A DNA stretch of 64,000 bases from Candidatus Latescibacterota bacterium (GCA_965261395.1 OZ253462.1:6112001-6176000), one strand, 5' to 3'. Shown: positions 40,030-50,441, numbered from the stretch's first letter. Numbers and translations are program-made. Notes: generated by a model not told the origin, from the letters alone.

Positions 40030-40077
40030 GCACATTGCGAGCAGGATTTAGCGCTCTAGTAGACGGGATTGCAGGCC

Positions 40078-41400
40078 ATGACGGCAGCCATTCAGATCAG
40101 CGAAACAGAGCCGACCGCATTACTAAAGGATTTTTCTGAGTTCACTACTTACTTGACACATCACCCAGTGATCCTGGCTACGGCTCGGGAATTCATCGGC
40201 GGCAGGGATCTCTGTGCTCTCAACGAGGCTATGAGCGAGCCCGTGCCGGAGACGACAACCCGGACGCGCCAGACGCTCTATCCCCAATTGCATTTGTTCT
40301 ACCATCTCGCACTGGCGGGTGAACTATTTCACAAAGTGCCCGGCAAGGGTGGAAAACTCATACTCGAAGCTACGGATCGCCTCGCGCAGTACGAAGAGTT
40401 GAAGCTAACGGAACGCTACTTTTTCCTGCTGGAGACCTTCTGGGTGGATTGCGACTGGAAAAAACTGCAATCGGGCCACGGTGTCCGTCTCGATCCTCCA
40501 TACGAAGTGCCTCCGGTCATCGAGTTGCTGGGCGAGCCCGCAGCAGCAAGAAAAAAAAAGAAGTGGAAGGATATATTCGCTCGGAGCCTCTCTTCCCTAG
40601 AATACTTGGTGCTGCACCTTGCGGCATTCGGGTTCTGGCGGGTTGAACCCGATCGCGAGACCAAGGGACGGTCGAAGCACGATATCCGGTTTAAACGGAT
40701 TGAACTGACGGAGTTTGGCGCGACACTGGCACCGATCTTGGCCGGTGAGCGGGACTTTCTTCATTGGAATCTACCGACCCGGCGGCAAGCGTTCGGCGAG
40801 TGGAAGGCCAAACCAGGCGATCCACTTGACGAGAAGAGAGTTTCTATATGCCGATTAGTGACGGGGGCGAAAACGAGATTGGAGAAAAAATCTCCCGAAA
40901 TATATGGGGAACAGGCCGACGAGCCGTTTTACCAGCCTTTTGAGCCACTGGTTGATATGGAAGAACTCAAGCGCGGTTTGCCACGGAAGCGCATTGAGTT
41001 CGAGGACGGTATTTACTGTTTCAACGTTGCCTTAAAGAAAAATCTCTGGCGGCGGATTGAGACGGCGGGTGGGCATACGCTGGAGGATCTGCACCATGCC
41101 ATCCAGGAGGCCTACGGTTTCGACGACGACCATCTCTACGCCTTCTTTATGGACGGCGAATTCTGGTCCGACGACAAGTTCACGTCGCCACATGACGAGG
41201 AAGGCCCTCATGTGGACGAGACGCAGATCGGGGAGTTGGATCTGTCGGAGGGGCAGCGCATGCTCTACCTGTTCGACTACGGGGACGAATGGCTTTTTCA
41301 GATCGCGGTGGAAGCGATTCGCAAAAGCGGGGCACGACCCCACAAGCCGAAGGTCGTAGGACAGAAGGGAAAAGCGCCTGAACAATACGAGTATTATTGA
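40078..41400 (+). CDS. Plasmid pRiA4b ORF-3 family protein
   Basis: C-terminal WRRIE...TLEDLHHAIQEAYGFDDDHLYAF...YLFDYGDEW.F. Confidence 0.88.
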   Translation: MTAAIQISETEPTALLKDFSEFTTYLTHHPVILATAREFIGGRDLCALNEAMSEPVPETTTRTRQTLYPQLHLFYHLALAGELFHKVPGKGGKLILEATDRLAQYEELKLTERYFFLLETFWVDCDWKKLQSGHGVRLDPPYEVPPVIELLGEPAAARKKKKWKDIFARSLSSLEYLVLHLAAFGFWRVEPDRETKGRSKHDIRFKRIELTEFGATLAPILAGERDFLHWNLPTRRQAFGEWKAKPGDPLDEKRVSICRLVTGAKTRLEKKSPEIYGEQADEPFYQPFEPLVDMEELKRGLPRKRIEFEDGIYCFNVALKKNLWRRIETAGGHTLEDLHHAIQEAYGFDDDHLYAFFMDGEFWSDDKFTSPHDEEGPHVDETQIGELDLSEGQRMLYLFDYGDEWLFQIAVEAIRKSGARPHKPKVVGQKGKAPEQYEYY

Positions 41401-41655: not shown

Positions 41656-43261
41656 CTCTTCCGAATAGCCGTATTTACTCGCCATGTACTGGGTCTCCAC
41701 TTTAACTTTGACGCGGCTGGCCTACAAATTCCACTTCCCGACTACTTGATGCTTGATATCTTTCCGCCTGCATCTTGAAAAACTTGGCATAGATTCCATC
41801 GCGCTGGACCAATTCCTCGTGTCGGCCTTCCTCGCATAGACGGCCCTCGTCGAGCACTAAGATGCGGTTGGCCGTTCTGACTGTTGATAGTCGGTGTGAC
41901 ACCAAAATGGAAGTCCGGCGGCCAGCGATGTCCAACAGCAATTTGTACAACTCATACTCGGCCTCCGGGTCCATCGCCGCCGTCGGTTCATCCAAAATAA
42001 GTACTTCAGCCTCCACCTTATAGAGACAACGGGCAAGGGCCAGATGCTGCCACTGCCCAACCGACAGATCGGTACCCTCCAAAGATCGCCCCAACTGGGT
42101 TTGTAGGCCGTCGGGCAACCCCTTGAGAACGTGGTCTAAACGGGTTGCGACGACGACCTCATCTATGCCGCCATCGGTATCCTCTCGATGCATGTCGCCC
42201 AGCCGAATGTTGTCTTCTACGGTTTGCTCGTACTGGGCAAAGTCCTGAAAGACAGCCGATGTCGCCGTGAGCAAGGCATTCTGGCCATCGGCGCGAACCT
42301 CTTTACCGCGAAACAACACCTTTCCTTCCGTCGGCTCTAGCAAGCCACAGAGCAGCTTCGCCAATGTGGTCTTGCCCGCACCGTTTCTACCCACGAGAGC
42401 TATTGTATCGGAGTCATAGATGTCAAACGAGATGTCATTGAGCGCATTGCCGCGCTCCCCGGGATAATGAAAGCTGACATTTCTAAAACTGATCATGGGC
42501 TCATGTGCCGCCTGTATTCCTCGTCGCGCTTGGGATGGTTGGGCAGTCTCGTCCTCGTTTCCTTCGGGAAGGTTCATGAATTCAAAGTAGTCCGATATGA
42601 ACAAGCTGCATCGGAACAATTGGGCAATTCCATTCGCCATGAGCCTTGTCGCATTGCGAAACTGGAGCGTAGCGGCCAAACCCATGGCCAAGTCTCCGAG
42701 ACTGATGATACCTTGACTGGCGCGCAGAACGATGAAGATATAGATCCCCGCCGCAGCGGCTATGCTTGGAATATCTGCGATTATTACTATCTTGTTTCGC
42801 GCTAGGAACAGCGCGCGATTCTCGCGGTAGCACTTCTCCCAAATCGCCTTGTAGTTTGCCAGCCAGTGTTGGGCAAAACCAAAGATCCGCACCTCTTTTG
42901 CATACGCGCGATCGCACAATACCTTTGCATGATATTCAAGGCGACGACGATCCGAACTCTGATACCGGAAAAGTTCGTGACCATCGAGTATGTAGCGAAG
43001 TTGTGATAAGAAATAGGGGATTGCTGCGACGATAACAAGGAGCGAAAGCCAGCCACTAAAGAGTGAGAGAAGGGCCGCAACCGAGACGAGACCTAAGATA
43101 GAAGATATCGCTTGGAAGAGGAAAAGCGACGTGTATTCAGGCCAGCCTTTTCTTTGTTCTGCTGCTTCTATCTTGTTGTAGAACGCGCTGTCCTCATAAC
43201 AGCGATATGGAACCCTACTAGCTTTTTCTGCCAAATCGTGCTGAGCCACATAAGTGGCCCT

Positions 43262-44839
43262 GGGTGCATTAGGTGATTGTTACGGTTTTGGTGGTTGTTT
43301 TTAGGTTGTCTCGGTACTGCTGAAAGACCCGGTCAAGCGTTCCATTGTACAAGGCGCAACGCAGGGCAAGAATGGCGTTGCTGTTTTCCTTATACCACCA
43401 AGCGCCCGAGCGTTTCAGACGAACATGGCCGATGAAGCGATGCGCCGATTCGATCGCACCCGACCCGATCGGGTATCCGCCCTTGCGATGGCTGCCGAAA
43501 TCGACTTGATGCAATCGCTTTTGCAGGTACGTCAAGGCCGTGCCGATCGCTTCTTCGGCCTCTTCCGAGACCGCCTGCATGCGCTGCAGACCCCAAACCA
43601 CGCCGGTGCCCTCACCGCAGAACAGGCGCGCCAGAGTCGCTTCCAGCCAATGGCTGGCGCGCGCCGCATCGGTGCCGTATTGAGCCTCGGCCACCGCGTG
43701 CAGGTAGCGGCTACAATGGTAGTAGTCGAGGATCTGACGGGCGCTCGGGAACAGTTCCTCCACCCATTTCCAGATCCACGGGGCTCCGTCCCCGATGGCA
43801 CACAAGCGCACCTGCTCCTCCGGGATCAGCCCCGCCTCCTTGACCTGGCGCAAGGCCGAGCCGAAGGCCTGTTCGTCGCCCATCTGGTGCCAGGAGATCA
43901 GCTGCTCGATGCGCTCATCGTCTACCAAGTAGAAGCGAAAGCCCTTGGCTTCGTGGTATTCACCCTGCCAACGCCTTCGCCGAGCCCGGCTCTTCTTGCG
44001 CCCCGGACGAGTCCCTTTGGCGGTCTCGGGACGACTGGGCACGTCGGCCGCGTCGATGGCCAACACCACGATGGGCCGCCACTTGCGAGCGGCGGCGGCT
44101 TGAGCAATGCGATCCTGGATGTCGGCCGCGTCCGGACACACCTGCAGCACGTCCAACGACCCGGTCTGTTGCAGCACCTCGTGAATCACACAGTCGCTCA
44201 TCGACGCGTCGGTCAGCTCGTCCAGCAGCTTCGCGGCGCGCTGGTGGGGCATCTCCAGCGCCAGCTTGACCCCGGCGTTTTGAACGTCCCACTGCTTGCG
44301 GTGCCCCGACAGGCCCAGGGCCTCGTCCAGCGGATAAAAGCCGTGCTCACAGGAAACGCAGTAGAAATAGGGCCGCTCCAAGGGCACCGGCCCGAGCAGC
44401 GTCTCCACCGTGCGCGAGCGCGACGGTCGCGCACGCAGGACGCGCTCACACTTCGGGCAGGCCGCCTCTTCTTGCGCCAGGAACTGGCCGTGGCGGCGTT
44501 CGATGAAGGCTTCCACCACCGCCGCGGTAAGCCCGGAGCGCTCTTGCGACACCGCCTCGGTAATCTCCATCAACGTCGGCGGAGTAGATCCGTGCTCGCT
44601 CATTTGCGTCTCCACCCGATCCAGCAACTCGTCCAGGGCTTCATGCGCTCTACTTCGAAAGCGCGCCCACTGCTGCCGCTGCTGAAAGGGCGCCAGAGAG
44701 AGAATCGCAGGCATTGCTCCCCTTCTTTCTCAATCGAGGGGAGCGTGCCGCGGGGGAGGCGGCAAAAGAATAGAACAAGTTACTGTAAAATATACACATA
44801 CGTACCGAAATCGTGCCATAACAATCGGCTAAGGTGCCC
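43262..44839 (-). mobile_element. ISLre2/ISKra4-like element with a 9-bp target duplication
   Basis: Direct repeats AGTGGCCCT at 43253-43261 and 44840-44848; imperfect TIRs GGGTGCATTAGGTGATTGTTACGG / rc GGGCACCTTAGCCGATTGTTATGG. Confidence 0.92.
43269..44714 (-). CDS. ISLre2/ISKra4 (UPF0236) transposase
   Basis: CPKC..C..C, GDGAPWIW, ILDYYH, IGSGAIESAH, RLKRSGAWW. Confidence 0.92.
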   Translation of the reverse strand: MPAILSLAPFQQRQQWARFRSRAHEALDELLDRVETQMSEHGSTPPTLMEITEAVSQERSGLTAAVVEAFIERRHGQFLAQEEAACPKCERVLRARPSRSRTVETLLGPVPLERPYFYCVSCEHGFYPLDEALGLSGHRKQWDVQNAGVKLALEMPHQRAAKLLDELTDASMSDCVIHEVLQQTGSLDVLQVCPDAADIQDRIAQAAAARKWRPIVVLAIDAADVPSRPETAKGTRPGRKKSRARRRRWQGEYHEAKGFRFYLVDDERIEQLISWHQMGDEQAFGSALRQVKEAGLIPEEQVRLCAIGDGAPWIWKWVEELFPSARQILDYYHCSRYLHAVAEAQYGTDAARASHWLEATLARLFCGEGTGVVWGLQRMQAVSEEAEEAIGTALTYLQKRLHQVDFGSHRKGGYPIGSGAIESAHRFIGHVRLKRSGAWWYKENSNAILALRCALYNGTLDRVFQQYRDNLKTTTKTVTIT

Positions 44840-45264
44840 AGTGGCCCTTGTGCCCAGAATCGCTCTCATTGGACGCCATAGAACATCAGTCGCCAACGCG
44901 ACGATCCACACCGCGATTTGCCCCCCCATCAACACGCCGAGCGTCGTGTACTCCATCGGCTCATTGGCCTGCCGAGCGATCCAGAGCGACTCGGCTTCAT
45001 CGACCAATAGCTTTGTGAAATAGATAGAAATAGAAACCGCAATACCATCATAGATCGTCAGCAGCATTGAAAGGATGAAATAGGCCCTACCAGCCCGCTG
45101 ATATACTTTCAGTATCTGCGGGAGGAGTGTTAAAAAACACCGCAAGCCAGATGCAACCTCGCGGAATTTATACGCCATAATGAGATCCCTCAAACTTAAT
45201 ACGCGACACCAATAATAATTTGCAGTGCGGCTCGGCGTTAGGTTTATTCGTTGTTGCCCAACAA

Positions 45265-46620
45265 TCAGGACCCATCACAATAAGCCATCCGCATCGGCAT
45301 CAGCACGGCAGCGTGGTGATCCTCTCCCGCCTCGAAGTGAAGGGGTGCCTCACTATGCGCAAGATATATCCGTATCTCCTCCCCCCCGTCTTTCAGCGCC
45401 TCCACAATCGTTGTGAGGAAGTCGTGATTGAGGCCGGCGCGGAATGATCCTCCATCCTCGATATTCGTCACATCAGCAGGGCAGCTCACGGAGTGCTCCC
45501 AGTCCGGGAGGTCGTCGCCGTGCAGGTCGTCCGCATTTTCTCCGTTCTGACTGAACCCCTGATCCCGCGTCGTTCGCAGCACCAGCTTCCCCTCCACACC
45601 CGACACCCGCATCTCTACGCTAGGCACGTACTCCCAGCCACTTTTCACCAGTTCGTGGCGGTCTCTGAGGAACGGCTCGATCTCCTCCACGCAGGCCATT
45701 AGGTGCTCGCTGCGCACGACCGCCAAGATCGGACCGTGGGAGCCGACGGCCTCTTGGTATTTGAGGTACGGTCCGGGAGTTGATGGCAACGTCACTCTGC
45801 AGCCGTCCGGAGTCCGCAACGTGGCAGATTCCTCTTCGATAATCAGCGTTGCCGAGTCCGTCTCCGGGACCATTCCAGCTTGCAGCGAATCGAGGATCAC
45901 CGGGGCCGGCAGCGACGCCAAACCTTTGCTCGACCAGTTGAGCAGCCGCGAGCCGTCGGTCGCGACAATCCTACCACCGGCGTCGAGACAGACGCAGTGC
46001 ATAATGGGCCGCTTGGGATCGTCGCTTGTGAAGCGAGCTACGTGACGCAATCCGGCCAGATCGTCCGGCCCGAGTTCGAATGTCTGTGCAGTGCTGGATT
46101 CCGCCATCGCCATGATCTCCTTTTGCAGGCGTTTCCGGGCCTTTTGCAGACGGCTCTTTACCACTCCGATTTGGAGGTGCAGCAAGGTTGCTGTCTGCTG
46201 ATAGGAATAGCCCTTGAGGTAGTGGTGGACGATCACGTCTCGGTGGGAGTCACTCAATCGTCCGATCGCCTTCCGCACCAACGCCCTGATCTCCTGCTTC
46301 TCCTGTTCAGGCGGTACCGCGAGGTCGAGCTGATCCAAAAGATTGAGTTGCGTCAGACGGCGCCGCTGCCACATGCGTGCTTTGTTGTCCGCAATCGAGC
46401 ACAGCCAGGCACCGAACCGGTCGGGAGCGCGCAGCTCCGCTAGCTGCTGGTACGCGGCAATGAACGCCTCCTGTAGGACGTCCTCTGCCACCTCTTGCGA
46501 GCCCAGCCTGCGGGTGAGCCGCACCAGCAACCACGGCGTGTGTTCCTCAACGAGCGAACCAAACGCCGCCGAGTCGCCAGCAGTAGCCCTCTGCACGCAG
46601 CTTTCTCCATTCCGTTCCAT
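45265..46620 (-). CDS. ECF sigma-70 factor fused to DNA polymerase III beta-clamp domains II-III
   Basis: sigma2 (GD.AAF..LV, AEDVLQEAF, FGAWL..IA.N) and sigma4 (GYSYQQTA..L......VKSRL.KAR..L), then RPIM..V, VATDGSRL, GPY..Y, GLN..FL...ALK, VLMPMRM, matching DnaN VATDGHRL, GRFPDY, GFN..Y, VVMPMRL. Confidence 0.88.
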   Translation of the reverse strand: MERNGESCVQRATAGDSAAFGSLVEEHTPWLLVRLTRRLGSQEVAEDVLQEAFIAAYQQLAELRAPDRFGAWLCSIADNKARMWQRRRLTQLNLLDQLDLAVPPEQEKQEIRALVRKAIGRLSDSHRDVIVHHYLKGYSYQQTATLLHLQIGVVKSRLQKARKRLQKEIMAMAESSTAQTFELGPDDLAGLRHVARFTSDDPKRPIMHCVCLDAGGRIVATDGSRLLNWSSKGLASLPAPVILDSLQAGMVPETDSATLIIEEESATLRTPDGCRVTLPSTPGPYLKYQEAVGSHGPILAVVRSEHLMACVEEIEPFLRDRHELVKSGWEYVPSVEMRVSGVEGKLVLRTTRDQGFSQNGENADDLHGDDLPDWEHSVSCPADVTNIEDGGSFRAGLNHDFLTTIVEALKDGGEEIRIYLAHSEAPLHFEAGEDHHAAVLMPMRMAYCDGS

Positions 46621-46746
46621 GGTCACCCTTATAGTTGCTTCCTAGGCGACAAAGGTATCCGAAAAAAGGAGCCGTCGGGACAAATTACGCCTGCATCTTC
46701 AATTCGGTTAGTGGTTCTTTTGTAGGTTGGACGTGAATCCGACGGG

Positions 46747-47994
46747 CTAGAAATTATACATCAGGCTCAGATCAATGAAGCTGTCGCGTCGGGTCTCGTA
46801 GTGGATATCCGCTGGGTCAACATTGAGGAGATAGATCGACTCTAGATTCACAGACCACTGGTCGGCGATGCGGCGCTCCAATGCAACCGCTAAGGCGCGG
46901 GTAGCCCGGTCCACATCCCCCAGAATACTGGCGACAATTTCACTGCTCTGGACATCGTTGAGCGCAAGGCGAGCGGCGAAGAAGAGATCGTTTTCGAGCG
47001 TATTGGGCGAGCGGCTTGGGGTCGCATTGCGGCCCCGGCTATCGTAATTCCATTCGCCGAGCAGATTGAGATCGGCAGCCGAGCCAAATACGGAATAGAA
47101 CGTGTATTCGCCACCGCAAACGGAAGCAACGTAATCCTCTTCCCGGCCGGACAGGTTGCGAGCGCCAGCGCGCTGAATGGCCTCCAGCTTGAACAACCAA
47201 GAGCCGACCGTTAGCTGGGCGTCCAATCCAAACTGGCGGATCTGCGCGTAGTACTGACCTAAGGCCGGCGCGCCGCTAGCGTCCAAGAGTAGCTTCAAAG
47301 AAGGCTCCCGGCTAGTGCCGTTGAATGCGCTCACACCCAGATCGAGAAGCCCAAAACTCTGACTGTACCGAGCGGCGAGATCTACATGCCGCTCCTCGGC
47401 CTCGCTCTCGTACTCGACCTGCTCATCTTCTACCAAGAGCGGGAGACGCAAGCGACCCGCTCGGCCCGGAAAGGTGCGGGCGCGGTGGTAGGGCAAAGCA
47501 AAAAATTCCATCACCCCCCAATCACTAGACCAAGTAAAATGGACCATGGGTTGCCCCAGCTTAGCTTCGCCAGCCGGATGTTCAACGAGATCGACTTGGT
47601 TGACGATATCGACCAAGTGCTGCGATTCGGTTACGCCCCAGAACACCTGATCGACGCCCACGCGCAGCTCCCATTCGCCATCGCCGATTTCGCCGAATAA
47701 CAGCAGATAGGCTTCGCGCAGATCGGCATGAGTGCGGCGTGGGTCGGTGTTGTCGTAGCGAAAGAATGGAGCTAAAGTGAGGCTTCTACCCGCAGCGTCT
47801 TCAAGGTAGAGTTTGGGCACTGCGACAAAGCCGCTCGCATGGGAGCGCTGGTCGGGATGAGCACCAGCTTCGGGGAACCATCGGCTTTCGACGTTCAAGC
47901 GCCCGGAAAACTCGTGGTCAATCTCGGTTCCGGCGCGTGCTTCAACGGCCAAGGCCAAAATCCAGACCGCGCCGAGAGCGGCACGGAGTAGCAT
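46747..47994 (-). CDS. Putative outer-membrane beta-barrel protein
   Basis: Signal peptide (VEARA-G), DLREAY, VFWGVTE, amphipathic strands, C-terminal YNF; TGATG coupling to the upstream gene. Confidence 0.75.
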   Translation of the reverse strand: MLLRAALGAVWILALAVEARAGTEIDHEFSGRLNVESRWFPEAGAHPDQRSHASGFVAVPKLYLEDAAGRSLTLAPFFRYDNTDPRRTHADLREAYLLLFGEIGDGEWELRVGVDQVFWGVTESQHLVDIVNQVDLVEHPAGEAKLGQPMVHFTWSSDWGVMEFFALPYHRARTFPGRAGRLRLPLLVEDEQVEYESEAEERHVDLAARYSQSFGLLDLGVSAFNGTSREPSLKLLLDASGAPALGQYYAQIRQFGLDAQLTVGSWLFKLEAIQRAGARNLSGREEDYVASVCGGEYTFYSVFGSAADLNLLGEWNYDSRGRNATPSRSPNTLENDLFFAARLALNDVQSSEIVASILGDVDRATRALAVALERRIADQWSVNLESIYLLNVDPADIHYETRRDSFIDLSLMYNF

Positions 47995-48806
47995 CAACGC
48001 GCCCGTTTTAGTCCGGTTTGCGTAAAATCGCGGTCGTCGAGGTCAGTCTGGAATTGAAAATCCGTCCAAGTCAGAACGGTACTTTTTCCGGTCAGATGAT
48101 TAACCATCGTCATCTCGCTAGCGCGCCAGTAACGCTCTAGGTACTGCTGGTAATTCCCCAAGGTGAGCGTCTTCAGATGGGCATCCTTGCGGTCGTAGTA
48201 CTCCACTTTCCAAACGCGCAGCTCGTCCTTGTCGCGCCAGACCACTTGGCGGCTATAGCCCGATTTCTTATCGACGGCAACGCGTTCGGAAACCGTGCAG
48301 GTCAAATCGCCGCAAGGCTCGTCGCGCAGGTAGCGGTAGGTGAATTTCTCCACGGCCGGGGCAGTCAGATCTTCATAGGCAAATTCGCTCCCCATGAAGG
48401 AGCCGGATCGATTCGACGAACTAATGCGCTTGACGCGTTTCAGAGCGGGTAGATAGAGCCATTGATCGTCCGCGCTTTCCCCATGCGAGTGAATGAGCAA
48501 CGCCGTTCCCTGGACATCGCGCGGCTCATCAAACACAAACAGACTCTTGTCACCATCTTCGGCGACTTCAAGAATTTTTACCCGGAGCTGGCGTCGGCTC
48601 TCTTGTCCGTGTTTGTTGCGCAGCACCATGATTTGCTGGGCCGTAAAGTTGCCAAAGCCTTCCTCGCGAGCGCGGGAATCTTGGGCGATTTTCAGCCCGG
48701 TTTCCTCGGGGGTGGCATTTTCGGAATGGGTGGGTGCCGCGCCAAGACAGGTCAAAATGATCAGACAACGCGCGAAAAACGACAGCATTGGTCGTGCGGG
48801 AATCAT
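47994..48806 (-). CDS. Outer-membrane lipoprotein-sorting (LolA-like) protein
   Basis: P.DV.GTALL, DDQWLYLPALKRVKRI, FMGSEFAYEDL; ATGA overlap with the MMPL stop. Confidence 0.9.
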   Translation of the reverse strand: MIPARPMLSFFARCLIILTCLGAAPTHSENATPEETGLKIAQDSRAREEGFGNFTAQQIMVLRNKHGQESRRQLRVKILEVAEDGDKSLFVFDEPRDVQGTALLIHSHGESADDQWLYLPALKRVKRISSSNRSGSFMGSEFAYEDLTAPAVEKFTYRYLRDEPCGDLTCTVSERVAVDKKSGYSRQVVWRDKDELRVWKVEYYDRKDAHLKTLTLGNYQQYLERYWRASEMTMVNHLTGKSTVLTWTDFQFQTDLDDRDFTQTGLKRAR

Positions 48807-50441
48807 GAATTTCTCCGGTCGATGGCAATCAGCAGCGTCGGAAGAAGTAAAAAGTCGGCAGCAAGCGCGAAGAGGATCGTCATCGTGACCAAAAGCCCGA
48901 GTGCCCAACTTACCTCAAATCCCGATGTGGCGAACACCAGAAAGCCTGCCGACAAAACGGCGCTCGTCGTCCATAACGCATGGCCCACAGTGCGAAAGGC
49001 GGAGCGCACGGCCTCGGGTGCTGGAAGGCCCTCGCGCCGGGCCTTCAGATATTTGCTCAGAAAATGAATCGTATCGTCCACGACAATTCCGAAGACAACG
49101 GCGATCACTACCGACGTAGCGGTCATCAAAGTACTGGGCCATGTTGTCGCTTAGCTCAATGCGGGGAATGCCGAATATTAGCACAACAACAATCAAGGTG
49201 ATGGCCCCAAGCAGGAATGTACTGCGGGCAATTACAAAGTCGGCAAAGCGGTCGAAGAAGGCCGTTCCCTCGGACTGAACAAGACGCACGCGCAATGGCA
49301 GAATCGAGAGCAATGCCGGCAGGAGCGTCATGGTATATATGAGAGCGCATAATACGCCAAACGCCACGTAGTTGCCCAAGACGTGAAACGGCGGCGAATC
49401 CGAGGCATTCAGGCTGAGGAATCCAATCGCCGTGGTGACCGAGGTGATGAATACCGGATAGGCATTGATGCGAATCGATTCGACAATCGCCGCGTTTCTA
49501 TCCAGACCACGTCTCATGCCCAGTAAAACACTCGTGACGATGTGGATTGAATCCGCGATGGCTATCACCATGACAATGATCGGCACGCCAGCGTTGGTCG
49601 GGCTGAACACCACGCCGTTCCAGCCGGCGAATCCCATAGTGGTATTGATGACAAACACGAGTACGGCGACGATGGCCACGGTGCCGAGAACCGAGCGCAG
49701 GAGAATAATTGTGACACCTATGATGATGAGAAATACAATAGGTGTCAGGGTCTCCATGTCGTTCTGGGTGGCATCGGAGAAAGTCCGGTTCATGACGACA
49801 TCGCCGGTCATGTAATAATTGATTCCCGGGTGGTCCGTGCGGGCTTGCTCCAGAAACGAATTGAGATAATCGGTAATTTCGACCACGGCCTGATCTGGGT
49901 TTTCAGGCAGGATGAAATTGATAGCCACTCCGGTCGTGCGTCCGTCGTGAGCGACCAGACGCCCGGCAATTGCAGCCGCATCCAGCGCGATCTTTTCGAT
50001 GCGCACCACATCGGCATCGCTCAGTGCATGCGCGTCCTCGACGAGCGGGGCGACAATGAGTTCATCCTCAAGGGCTTCGCTATGGGTATAGTTAGTGAGG
50101 GAGTTGACGCGACTGGAATAAGGCGTGCGCCACGCAGCTTCGGTCAATTCCTCAATCGCGCCAAGCGCCTCGCGGGTGAACACCGAACCCTCGCGCGGCG
50201 CAATAGCAATCAGGGCCGTATTGGAGACGGAGTACGTGTTCTCCAAGGCGTTGAAAGCGGCGAGTTGCGGATTGTCTGCGCTAAACAGAACGTGGTAATC
50301 GTTGGTAACGGTGATGAAGCGAACACCAGCCGTCATAGCCAGCATGACCAGCGTTGCGAGCGCAACGACCAGCCAGCGACGGCGCAAAATGGCGGCGATG
50401 TAGCGTTCCAAGCGCAAAAGAGTCGCCCCCTCGACCGTCAC
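48803..50441 (-). pseudogene. MMPL/RND family transporter with an internal deletion and frame change
   Basis: N-half (IAIADSIH, TSVTTAIGF) jumps at FDDRY (~49115) to the last TMs (GIVVDDTIH, LSAGF, LLLP) in another frame; the second periplasmic domain is missing. Confidence 0.85.

What the first reader, a model, noticed from the sequence alone, without database searches (positions are those of the whole stretch)
41702..46620. ECF sigma factor fused to the peptide-binding half of a beta sliding clamp, upstream of a peptide-type ABC exporter
Seen: residues ~1-175 form a complete ECF sigma (sigma2+sigma4). Residues ~180-447 align by eye with DnaN domains II and III (VATDGSRL vs VATDGHRL, GPYLKY vs GRFPDY, GLNHDFL vs GFNVSYV, VLMPMRM vs VVMPMRL). 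Domain I is absent. No anti-sigma gene is adjacent, and an ABC exporter starts 87 nt downstream on the same strand. Established: the clamp pocket that binds QLxLF peptides and griselimycin lies between domains II and III. Known ECF C-terminal extensions are SnoaL, TPR and Cys-rich types; I know of MerR-DnaN fusions but not ECF-DnaN. Inference: a one-component sensor using a decoy clamp pocket to detect clamp-targeting peptides (antibiotics, toxins, phage proteins) and switch on efflux. Alternatively, the two-domain unit trimerises like PCNA/gp45, giving a clamp-tethered sigma reminiscent of T4 gp45-gp55 activation.
Basis: partly seen in the sequence, partly recalled or inferred. Interest (0 to 1): 0.88.

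Follow-up and report, generated by a model that had tools for sequence, protein, structure and literature searches.

The report
Sigma factor with built-in half sliding clamp
A bacterial transcription start factor carries two-thirds of a DNA sliding clamp at its tail and, in its own hinge, the short peptide that such clamps normally grip, so it probably latches itself shut; the neighbouring export pump is broken and is not a regular partner.

Summary
The fusion is real. Gene 45265-46620(-) encodes a complete ECF sigma factor (residues 1-177) joined to a homologue of beta-clamp domains II+III (178-453). The AF2 model has pLDDT 88. It aligns to E. coli beta residues 122-366 with Z 22.8, and a family profile hits beta clamps at E 1e-18.

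The fusion occurs in 67 of 168 Latescibacterota species genomes, all in one class.

Positions matching the clamp's peptide pocket are the best conserved part of the domain. New here: the sigma2-sigma4 linker carries a conserved clamp-binding-like motif (QLNLL; Q in 37 of 39 homologues). A complex model docks it into that pocket in the canonical way (ipSAE 0.80, best control 0.02). This pass may partly reflect likeness to solved clamp-peptide complexes.

My best reading is a one-component sigma factor latched by its own linker, analogous to ECF41. A conserved ECF-type promoter precedes the gene in 37 of 38 loci.

The efflux story fails. The ABC exporter is split by a 1,579-bp ISKra4-family element. 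An exporter directly follows the sigma gene in only 1 of 38 related loci. The trimer-ring idea was not tested, and the acidic, partly lost inner helices argue against it.

New variant of a known kind; wholly in silico.

The parts
45265..46620 (-). ECF sigma / half-clamp fusion gene (451 aa from ATG 46620; the ORF list opens at GTG 46626, 453 aa; residue numbers in this report count from that GTG)
46357..46554 (-). sigma region 2 (residues 25-90)
   Evidence: Pfam Sigma70_r2, E 1.7e-12
46327..46350 (-). Clamp-binding-like motif in the sigma2-sigma4 linker: Q93-L-N-L-L-D-Q-L100
   Evidence: Q93 is present in 37 of 39 homologues and position 96 is L/F/W/I/Y/M in 37 of 39. Residues 87-97 and 99-100 form the predicted interface with the pocket.
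46126..46281 (-). sigma region 4.2 (residues 116-167)
   Evidence: Pfam Sigma70_r4_2, E 1.9e-11
45268..46095 (-). Beta-clamp domain II+III homologue (residues 178-453) with a conserved peptide pocket (T223, G225, R227, L228, L288, A293, N400, F403, V441, M443, P444, M445, R446)
46634..46660 (-). Conserved ECF-type promoter-like motif GGATAC-N16-GCAAC. It ends 7 nt before GTG 46626 and 13 nt before ATG 46620.
   Evidence: The motif GGATAC(<=1 mismatch)-N14-17-GC[AG][AT]C lies upstream of the gene in 37 of 38 loci, across clades down to 37% protein identity. Window position.
44841..45193 (-). 5' fragment of an ABC exporter (membrane domain start), cut off by the insertion sequence
   Evidence: Residues 1-118 align to the intact L007 gene.
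43262..44840 (-). ISKra4-family insertion sequence, 1,579 bp, transposase 43269..44714. The 8-bp target duplication GTGGCCCT lies at 43254-43261 and 44841-44848.
   Evidence: NF033572 at 245.5 bits. Inverted repeat pair I1. Seven copies at 99.7-100% identity in the genome.
41702..43261 (-). 3' fragment of the same ABC exporter (rest of the membrane domain plus the ATPase)
   Evidence: PF00005 at E 6e-29. Aligns to L007 directly after the 5' piece. Taking out the element and one duplicate copy leaves an open 634-codon frame.

Best explanation
The gene encodes a one-component ECF sigma factor. Its regulatory C-terminal extension is a pseudo sliding clamp: domains II and III of a DnaN-type beta clamp, without domain I.

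Shown by computation:
- The sigma part is complete (regions 2 and 4).
- The extension is homologous to beta-clamp domains II+III.
- The residues that form the clamp's peptide-binding pocket are the best conserved part of the extension.
- The sigma2-sigma4 linker holds a conserved motif (QLNLL here; Q-aliphatic-x-L/F/W across the family). The window's version fits the published clamp-binding consensus.
- A complex model places Q93 in the equivalent of subsite II and L96 in the equivalent of subsite I.

Inferred: in the resting state the pocket grips the protein's own linker. This holds sigma2 and sigma4 in a closed form that cannot thread the linker through RNA polymerase, as proposed for the SnoaL extension of ECF41. 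Anything that takes or distorts the pocket would free the linker and switch the sigma factor on. Candidates are another clamp-binding-motif protein or peptide, or a pocket-binding small molecule. The sigma factor would then act from its own conserved promoter (GGATAC-N14-16-GCAAC/GCATC), so it would be auto-amplifying and would also transcribe whatever lies downstream in the same operon. The signal and the regulon beyond the gene itself are unknown.
For: Sigma domains.

Fold and homology of the extension: pLDDT 88.3, pTM 0.87; beta clamps, best E 3e-14; Z 22.8, rmsd 2.5 A, 231 aligned, E. coli residues 122-366; profile E 1.2e-18.

Pocket: the published pocket list was read in PMC11139829 (passages). 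It was mapped through the HMM alignment, and V344 could not be mapped. In the window's protein 12 of 17 mapped positions are identical to E. coli beta and 4 more are conservative, while overall identity is 17%. Across 39 homologues the pocket columns have mean entropy 1.29 bits against 2.18 for the domain (Mann-Whitney p 6e-6).

Linker motif: Q93 in 37 of 39 and a hydrophobic residue at 96 in 37 of 39. The linker is otherwise variable. Of the 11 other ECF-like sigma factors in the same genome, 1 has Q-x-x-F at that place and 10 have nothing like it.

Docking: ipSAE 0.80, 0.81 and 0.80 in three runs, with best control 0.02. That mark was reached by 58 of 80 solved complexes and 2 of 110 mismatched pairs. 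The runs agree in at least 72% of contacts, and the partner's pLDDT is at least 52. The interface is exactly the mapped pocket (223, 225-226, 228, 288-290, 292-295, 400, 441, 443-450) against linker residues 87-97 and 99-100. Q93 touches N400, S226, M443 and M445; L96 touches T223, L228, A293 and V441.

Precedent: C-terminal extensions are the second commonest regulatory mode of ECFs and go with a lack of anti-sigma genes (PMC7826278, passages). The ECF41 extension inhibits by contacting a linker motif (PMC8999054, passages).

No anti-sigma-type neighbour was found.

Own promoter motif is present in 37 of 38 loci.
Against: - The full-length AF2 model (39-sequence alignment, pLDDT 88.0, pTM 0.72) does not dock the linker. 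It draws residues 68-101 as one helix, with mean pLDDT 60 for residues 91-100 and 44 for 101-110.
- Clamp-peptide complexes are abundant among solved structures, so the pass may show likeness rather than binding. The partner's own pLDDT there is only 52-57.
- Only Q-aliphatic-x-hydrophobic is conserved family-wide. The fifth motif position is L only in the clades at 53% identity or more and is polar elsewhere. The i, i+3/4, i+7 hydrophobic spacing would also suit an amphipathic helix that packs on something else, for example RNA polymerase.
- Pocket columns may be conserved partly for structural reasons, and they helped to anchor the alignment.
- No covariation between motif and pocket could be seen, because there are too few independent sequences.
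- About 270-aa clamp-only relatives exist in metagenomes. If these are real free-standing genes, they have no linker in cis.
- No activating signal or target gene was identified. Genome-wide matches to the promoter pattern are no more than my rough chance estimate (39 found against about 50 expected; 7 against about 6 for the stricter form).
Confidence: 0.5

Rival explanations
1. One reading: a decoy clamp pocket senses external clamp-targeting peptides or antibiotics and switches on the adjacent ABC exporter.
For: The pocket is conserved. An external pocket ligand would fit the latch model as the releasing signal. Transporter genes of three kinds lie next to the gene in some close relatives. 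An MFS pump is adjacent on the same strand in 6 loci (5 just upstream, L018 just downstream) and near it in L012. An RND/LolA-like/DUF1302 set lies upstream in 8 to 10 loci. An ABC exporter lies directly downstream in L007. In the window and in L007 the exporter follows on the same strand, after 71-87 nt in the window (depending on the start codon) and about 75 nt in L007, so it could be co-transcribed.
Against: A homologous ABC exporter lies directly downstream in 1 of 38 loci, and a distant paralogue lies 3.5 kb away in 1 more. In most loci the next gene is on the opposite strand, and in the more distant clades the neighbours are unrelated enzymes. Here the exporter is split by an insertion sequence, and the RND-like gene on the other side has a 669-bp internal deletion. 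No copy of the promoter motif lies before any transporter. Nothing marks the exporter as peptide-specific.
Confidence: 0.1
2. The linker motif works in trans. It binds the housekeeping beta clamp loaded on DNA, or the pseudo-clamp binds clamp-binding proteins. Transcription by this sigma factor would then be coupled to replication or repair state, as T4 late transcription is coupled to gp45, with the pseudo-clamp acting as an internal competitor.
For: The window's motif QLNLL fits the published clamp-binding consensus. The genome has one ordinary dnaN that the same motif could bind. Clamp-dependent transcription has precedents: T4 gp45-gp55/gp33 (recalled), and a preprint on phage Mu late transcription using the clamp, of which I saw only the search listing and the start of the abstract.
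Against: The motif lies inside the linker that must enter RNA polymerase, so binding a clamp and working as a sigma factor at the same time is hard to picture. The co-occurrence of motif and pseudo-clamp in one chain points first to a cis interaction.
Confidence: 0.12
3. The two-domain unit trimerises into a PCNA-like six-domain ring, giving a sigma factor that is itself a sliding clamp.
For: Two clamp-fold domains are one third of a ring. Two-domain clamp relatives of 211-246 aa occur in phages.
Against: In the model the second inner helix of the first domain is reduced to 3-residue turns. The three remaining inner helices carry net charges of -1, -3 and -1, and the domain has 22 K+R against 45 D+E. 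By recalled knowledge, the channel of real clamps is basic. Oligomerisation was not modelled.
Confidence: 0.07
4. The extension is a required structural or positive module, as part of the ECF41 and ECF42 extensions are. It might give stability, RNA polymerase contact or dimerisation, with no ligand sensing, and the linker motif is kept for RNA polymerase contacts.
For: Extensions can be needed for activity (PMC8999054, passages). The full-length AF2 model leaves the linker undocked. The hydrophobic spacing of the motif is compatible with a helix.
Against: It does not explain why precisely the clamp's peptide-pocket residues are the best conserved part of the domain. It also does not explain why the linker motif matches the pocket's known ligand consensus and is modelled in the canonical pose.
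Confidence: 0.2

Closest known systems
ECF41-type sigma factors (SnoaL-like C-terminal extension; e.g. Ecf41 of Bacillus licheniformis and Rhodobacter sphaeroides)
   Same: An ECF core with a fused C-terminal domain of more than 50 aa and no anti-sigma neighbour. The extension is proposed to act by contacting a conserved motif in the sigma2-sigma4 linker (PMC8999054 and PMC7826278, passages).
   Different: The extension here is a beta-clamp II+III homologue, not SnoaL. The linker motif is a clamp-binding-type QLxL, not the ECF41 motif.
Bacterial beta sliding clamp (DnaN) and its clamp-binding-motif partners
   Same: Homologous fold for domains II+III (Z 22.8; profile E 1e-18). The peptide pocket between the two domains is kept. 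The predicted ligand pose has Gln in subsite II and the fourth-position Leu in subsite I.
   Different: No domain I, so the head-to-tail dimer ring of DnaN cannot form. It falls below all Pfam DNA_pol3_beta thresholds. One inner helix is lost and the rest are acidic. H175 and R246 are not kept. It is fused to a transcription factor, and the genome keeps a separate ordinary dnaN.
Phage T4 late transcription (gp45 clamp with gp55 sigma and gp33); phage Mu MuC
   Same: A sliding-clamp fold and a sigma factor work together through a short clamp-binding peptide (recalled for T4; for Mu I saw only the search listing and start of the abstract).
   Different: There the clamp is a separate, DNA-loaded ring that activates in trans. 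Here a ring-incompetent fragment is covalently fused and is more likely an internal latch.
ECF238 / CorE-type sigma factors
   Same: Both a C-terminal extension and a motif in the sigma2-sigma4 linker are needed for control (PMC8999054, passage).
   Different: Those use a roughly 20-aa Cys-rich tail with a CxC linker motif and metal ions. Here a 276-aa folded domain would bind a peptide motif.

Membership tests
ECF (group IV) sigma-70 factors | Only regions sigma2 and sigma4, joined by a short linker | tested here: met
   Sigma70_r2 at 25-90 and Sigma70_r4_2 at 116-167, with no region 3 or 1.1 hit. TIGR02937 scores 84.9 bits against a cut-off of 42.9.
ECF (group IV) sigma-70 factors | Own gene preceded by an ECF-type promoter (-35 GGAAC-like, -10 CGTC-like, about 16-nt spacer); the consensus is recalled | tested here: inconclusive
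   GGATAC-N14-17-GC[AG][AT]C is conserved upstream in 37 of 38 loci. No transcription start site was obtained, and it is not shown that this sigma factor reads the motif.
ECF (group IV) sigma-70 factors | Binds RNA polymerase core and directs initiation | not testable with these tools
   Needs biochemistry.
ECFs regulated by a C-terminal extension (ECF41-like logic) | Extension longer than 50 aa and no anti-sigma gene next door | tested here: met
   The extension is 276 aa. No anti-sigma-type Pfam domain was found in the neighbours scanned, and the neighbours vary between loci.
ECFs regulated by a C-terminal extension (ECF41-like logic) | Extension contacts the sigma2-sigma4 linker | tested here: inconclusive
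   The complex model passes (ipSAE 0.80, best control 0.02), but the full-length AF2 model leaves the linker undocked.
Beta sliding clamp (DnaN) | Three clamp-fold domains (I, II, III) | tested here: not met
   Only residues equivalent to E. coli 122-366 are present. Sigma4 ends about 8 residues before the domain starts.
Beta sliding clamp (DnaN) | Matches to Pfam DNA_pol3_beta_2 / _3 | tested here: not met
   No Pfam family at E<=10. Homology shows only with a family profile or by fold.
Beta sliding clamp (DnaN) | Hydrophobic peptide pocket between domains II and III | tested here: met
   12 of 17 mapped pocket positions are identical to E. coli in the window's protein. Pocket columns are the most conserved.
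Beta sliding clamp (DnaN) | Closed ring around DNA with a basic inner surface | tested here: inconclusive
   One inner helix is lost and the remaining helices are net acidic. The oligomeric state was not modelled.
Clamp-binding motif (CBM) | Q-aliphatic-x-[L/M]-[F/L] or the six-residue form (PMC11139829) | tested here: met
   QLNLL in the window. Across 39 homologues only Q-aliphatic-x-[L/F/W] is kept, and position 5 is polar in the distant clades.
Clamp-binding motif (CBM) | Binds the pocket | tested here: inconclusive
   A model only. The pass may come from likeness to solved clamp-peptide complexes.
ISKra4-family insertion sequence | Family transposase, terminal inverted repeats, target duplication, multiple copies | tested here: met
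   NF033572 at 245.5 bits against a cut-off of 205. Inverted repeat pair I1. An 8-bp duplication and 7 copies at 99.7-100% identity.

The most novel reading that the evidence does not exclude
A sigma factor gated by a borrowed replication interaction. A ring-incompetent pseudo-clamp grips a clamp-binding motif in the sigma factor's own linker. The switch is thrown by competition for that pocket. The competitor could be the cell's pool of clamp-binding proteins, which would report replication or repair state. It could be natural products that target the clamp pocket. Or, once freed, the linker motif could tether the sigma factor to beta clamps left on DNA, a cellular counterpart of T4 late transcription.
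Probability: 0.3. Interest if true: 0.85.

Novelty: new variant of a known kind. Interest (0 to 1): 0.74.

Why it matters
ECF sigma factors with fused regulatory domains are the 'one-component systems' of the sigma world, and only a few extension types are understood.

This one would reuse the clamp-peptide interaction, among the best studied in the replisome, as a transcriptional latch. That gives precise, cheap tests: two point mutants, one peptide and one promoter. It would also yield a natural, monomeric, soluble read-out module for ligands of the clamp pocket, which is an antibiotic target.

It shows too that a DnaN fragment can be kept for its pocket alone.

It is confined to one class of an uncultured phylum and is annotated in public records only as 'sigma-70 family' (P0052).

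Tried and rejected
1. Pfam on the C-terminal part alone found nothing at E<=10. A family profile and the fold were needed.

2. Regulon by promoter scan of the whole 6.55-Mb genome. The pattern GGATAC-N14-17-GC[AG][AT]C gave 39 matches, against about 50 by my rough uniform-composition estimate. The stricter form gave 7, against about 6. Only 4 matches lie in non-coding DNA within 250 nt upstream of a gene on the same strand, and one of these is the gene's own promoter. No regulon could be named.

3. The motif scan of the 38 loci found no second conserved site before a transporter. Recurrent extra matches lie inside coding sequence, one of them in the codons of the clamp motif itself.

4. A conserved downstream partner: cluster c38 turned out to be an antisense artefact ORF in GC-rich DNA. 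No conserved same-strand partner was found.

5. Free-standing about 270-aa forms (P0056 and others). The metagenome scan with P0056 returned 2 loci. In L073, the one whose ORFs I listed, the sigma and clamp parts lie in different frames. Whether true stand-alone genes exist is open.

6. Covariation between linker position 96 and pocket positions showed no pattern in 39 related sequences.

7. RNA evidence. Contigs from 4 metatranscriptome runs (4 studies) cover parts of the gene at 90-99% identity. They come from relatives, they may include DNA carry-over, and they give no start site. I draw no conclusion about expression or habitat. Uncovered parts of the stretch mean nothing.

8. The viral structure library gave three-domain phage DnaN proteins as best hits and nothing closer. 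The protein atlas gave only leads to short clamp-like clusters.

9. Literature. No paper held 'ECF' + 'C-terminal extension' + 'sliding clamp' + 'sigma factor', 'ECF' + 'DNA_pol3_beta' + 'sigma', or 'clamp-binding motif' + 'ECF sigma'. Searches listed nothing on such a fusion. The words clamp, DnaN and polymerase III do not occur in the main text of PMC7826278 or PMC7671368, and clamp and DnaN do not occur in PMC8999054. The supplements of these papers (group tables and texts) were closed and might list such an extension.

Full report
WHAT IS THERE

On the minus strand the window holds, in order of transcription:
- a DUF1302-like gene (46747..47997);
- a 120-nt spacer;
- the gene in question (45265..46626 from GTG; the likely start is ATG 46620, since homologues begin MERNG);
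- a spacer of 71-87 nt, depending on the start codon chosen for the next piece;
- a 137-aa 5' piece of an ABC exporter (44780..45193);
- an ISKra4-family transposase gene (43269..44714);
- the 515-aa remainder of the exporter (41702..43249).

THE FUSION

Residues 25-90 and 116-167 are sigma regions 2 and 4.2 (E 1.7e-12 and 1.9e-11). The general ECF model TIGR02937 is passed (84.9 bits, cut-off 42.9). No specific ECF subfamily model is passed.

Residues 178-453 match no Pfam family even at E<=10, and a single-sequence search gives beta clamps only at E 0.26. Three stronger lines settle the matter:
- An AlphaFold2 model of residues 178-453 from a 22-row alignment is confident (pLDDT 88.3, pTM 0.87).
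- Foldseek returns at least 500 PDB matches at E<=0.001, and every listed match is a beta clamp (best 3e-14).
- VIA-align puts model residues 1-270 on E. coli beta residues 122-366 with Z 22.8, rmsd 2.5 A and 231 aligned residues. The best score is Z 23.1 to 7evp_A. That range is domains II and III; domain I has no counterpart.

A profile of 14 clamp-only sequences of the family hits beta clamps at E 1.2e-18 (E. coli 1.5e-15) over both domains. PCNA scores only 0.06. So this is homology, not only a shared fold.

DISTRIBUTION

- The word-index search found 53 relatives, nearly all 440-470 aa and carrying the sigma Pfam domains.
- The exhaustive search found 76 cluster representatives at E<=0.001. 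Most are about 450 aa with the domain at about 180-450, and some are about 270-aa clamp-only forms.
- In one genome per species, 38 loci carry the gene. All are labelled Latescibacterota or, for a few MAGs, Gemmatimonadota.
- A profile search of 168 genomes of the phylum found family-level matches (E<=1e-24) in 67 of them, and 64 of these span the whole profile.
- Those 64 matches lie in open frames of 422-510 aa (one has an internal TAG), so they are fused.
- All 67 are in the four families of the window's class, and none of the 36 genomes of the other ten families has one.
- The remaining matches are the ordinary dnaN, at 1e-6 to 1e-14.
- Within the window's genus 22 of 31 genomes have it, one of them as a remnant.
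- The genome keeps a normal three-domain dnaN elsewhere.

THE POCKET

The review PMC11139829 (passages read) lists the E. coli pocket residues. Subsite I is R152, L155, T172, G174, H175, R176, L177, P242, R246, V247, V360 and M362. Subsite II is H175, N320, Y323, V344, M362, P363, M364 and R365.

Through the HMM alignment to E. coli beta these map to R206, M209, T223, G225, S226, R227, L228, L288, E292, A293, V441, M443, N400, F403, P444, M445 and R446. V344 could not be mapped.
- Twelve of the 17 mapped positions are identical in the window's protein, at 17% overall identity.
- Four are conservative: L155 to M, P242 to L, V247 to A and Y323 to F.
- Among the 17, H175 and R246 are the two most variable columns.

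Over 39 homologues (24-93% identical to the query) the pocket columns have mean entropy 1.29 bits, against 2.18 for all 270 columns of the domain (Mann-Whitney p 6e-6). Sequences are related and the alignment is partly anchored on these motifs, so the p-value is only indicative.

By contrast the ring-related features have decayed:
- The second inner helix of the first domain is reduced to 3-residue turns in the model.
- The three remaining inner helices are net -1, -3 and -1.
- The domain has 22 K+R against 45 D+E.

THE LINKER MOTIF (new in this stage)

Directly after the basic end of region 2.4 the linker reads RRRLTQLNLLDQLDLA. In the 39-row alignment:
- Q93 is kept in 37 rows;
- position 94 is L in 25, and M, I or V in 7 more;
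- position 96 is L/F/W/I/Y/M in 37;
- position 100 is L/W/F in 32.
The rest of the linker is variable in sequence and length.

QLNLL fits the published consensus Q-aliphatic-x-[L/M]-[F/L]. In clades below about 50% identity only the first four positions fit. As a control I looked at the 11 other ECF-like sigma factors of the same genome found with the family's sigma profile. Ten have nothing similar at that place. One, an ECF with a TPR extension, has QVAF.

DOES THE POCKET TAKE THE LINKER?

I folded residues 178-453 together with residues 84-118 as separate chains, each with its 39-row alignment. The result was ipSAE 0.80, 0.81 and 0.80, against 0.02, 0.02 and 0.00 for three controls. That mark was reached by 58 of 80 solved complexes and 2 of 110 mismatched pairs in the tool's calibration. 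The runs agree in at least 72% of contacts, and the partner's pLDDT is at least 52.

The confident interface on the domain is residues 223, 225-226, 228, 288-290, 292-295, 332, 334, 336, 357-360, 400, 426, 428, 441 and 443-450. On the peptide it is 87-97 and 99-100. The tightest pairs put Q93 against N400, S226, M443 and M445 (the equivalent of subsite II) and L96 against T223, G225, L228, A293 and V441 (the equivalent of subsite I). This is the canonical pose described.

Two cautions apply. Many clamp-peptide complexes are solved, so the pass may show likeness rather than binding. And the full-length AF2 model (pLDDT 88.0, pTM 0.72) draws residues 68-101 as one helix, with low confidence from residue 91 on, and does not dock it.

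HOW IT MOST LIKELY WORKS

C-terminal extensions are the second commonest way of controlling ECFs and go with missing anti-sigma genes (PMC7826278). The SnoaL extension of ECF41 inhibits by contacting a linker motif (PMC8999054). By analogy I propose that the pseudo-clamp grips the linker motif and so holds the sigma factor closed. By recalled structural knowledge, the ECF linker has to thread through RNA polymerase, so a gripped linker should block holoenzyme formation. Occupation of the pocket by another ligand would open it.

The domains, the conserved pocket, the conserved motif and a passing complex model are shown. Inhibition, the releasing signal and the targets are inferred. I put this at about 0.5.

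PROMOTER AND TARGETS

A bipartite motif, GGATAC(C/T)T-N12-15-GC(A/G)(A/T)C, lies upstream of the gene in 37 of 38 loci. The 38th locus has no upstream DNA. Three of the 37 have one mismatch in GGATAC. It is found in all clades, down to 37% protein identity, and whatever the upstream neighbour is.

In the window it is at 46660..46634(-). It ends 7 nt before the GTG and 13 nt before the ATG, so the mRNA may be leaderless or nearly so. In the distant clades it lies 60-100 nt upstream. It has the layout of ECF promoters, and auto-regulation is the usual case, but no start site was obtained. Genome-wide the pattern is not enriched and no other convincing site was found, so the regulon may be little more than the gene's own operon.

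THE NEIGHBOURS

In the close clade the gene sits between a hexapeptide-transferase-like gene and an enoyl-CoA hydratase gene. Variable cassettes lie around it:
- an MFS pump, adjacent on the same strand in 6 loci and near the gene in L012;
- an RND/LolA-like/DUF1302 set upstream in 8 to 10 loci;
- an ABC exporter directly downstream only in L007 and the window.

In the distant clades the neighbours are unrelated enzymes. The recurrence of transporters is worth noting, but it is not synteny with one partner.

In this genome both flanking transporters are damaged:
- The exporter is cut by a 1,579-bp insertion sequence with about 24-bp imperfect terminal repeats and an 8-bp duplication. The element is present in 7 copies at 99.7-100% identity. 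Without it the frame is open for 634 codons, and it matches the intact L007 gene.
- The RND-like gene lacks 669 bp relative to the closest relative, L014, and changes frame at about 49115.

COMPARISON AND NOVELTY

It works like an ECF41-type self-regulated sigma factor and is a member of the ECF family. Its extension is a relative of DnaN but fails the family's defining three-domain ring architecture, so it is a pseudo-clamp, not a clamp.

I found no description of such a fusion. The searches returned no papers, and searches listed nothing relevant.

I rate it a new variant of a known kind, with interest 0.74: surprising to both sigma-factor and replisome specialists, and directly testable, but so far resting only on computation.

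Noticed in passing
window 43262-44840: ISKra4-family insertion sequence of 1,579 bp, present in 7 copies at 99.7-100% identity in the 6.55-Mb genome. It was probably active recently. This copy has an 8-bp target duplication, GTGGCCCT.
   Followed up: yes
window about 48803-50441 (junction near 49115): The RND/MMPL-like transporter gene upstream of the sigma gene lacks 669 bp relative to the closest relative (L014 4382-5050) and shifts frame there. It is probably a pseudogene, so both transporters flanking the sigma gene are damaged in this genome.
   Followed up: partly
window 46618-46660: The conserved promoter-like motif ends only 7 nt before GTG 46626 and 13 nt before ATG 46620. The string GTGATCATGGA is nearly invariant in the close clade, which suggests a leaderless or near-leaderless mRNA.
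   Followed up: no
window 40069-41400 (+): A 443-aa protein with a PRiA4_ORF3-like C-terminal domain (PF07929, E 1e-22) lies between the exporter and the enoyl-CoA hydratase gene. Together with the exporter it is absent from this position in most relatives, so it looks like inserted DNA.
   Followed up: no
G000:C1:4573742-4575763 (locus L074): Another ECF sigma factor of the genome (673 aa) has a TPR-containing C-terminal extension and QVAF at the linker position where the clamp-fused one has QLNL. This is probably coincidence.
   Followed up: partly
L073 2990-4095: A metagenome contig holds a relative in which the sigma part and the clamp part lie in different, overlapping frames. It is either a decayed copy or a sequencing error.
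   Followed up: no
L025 and L028; genomes G131, G108, G039 and G086: Several relatives hold only truncated remnants of the fusion gene, and 9 of 31 genomes of the genus lack it. The gene is dispensable and is lost repeatedly.
   Followed up: no
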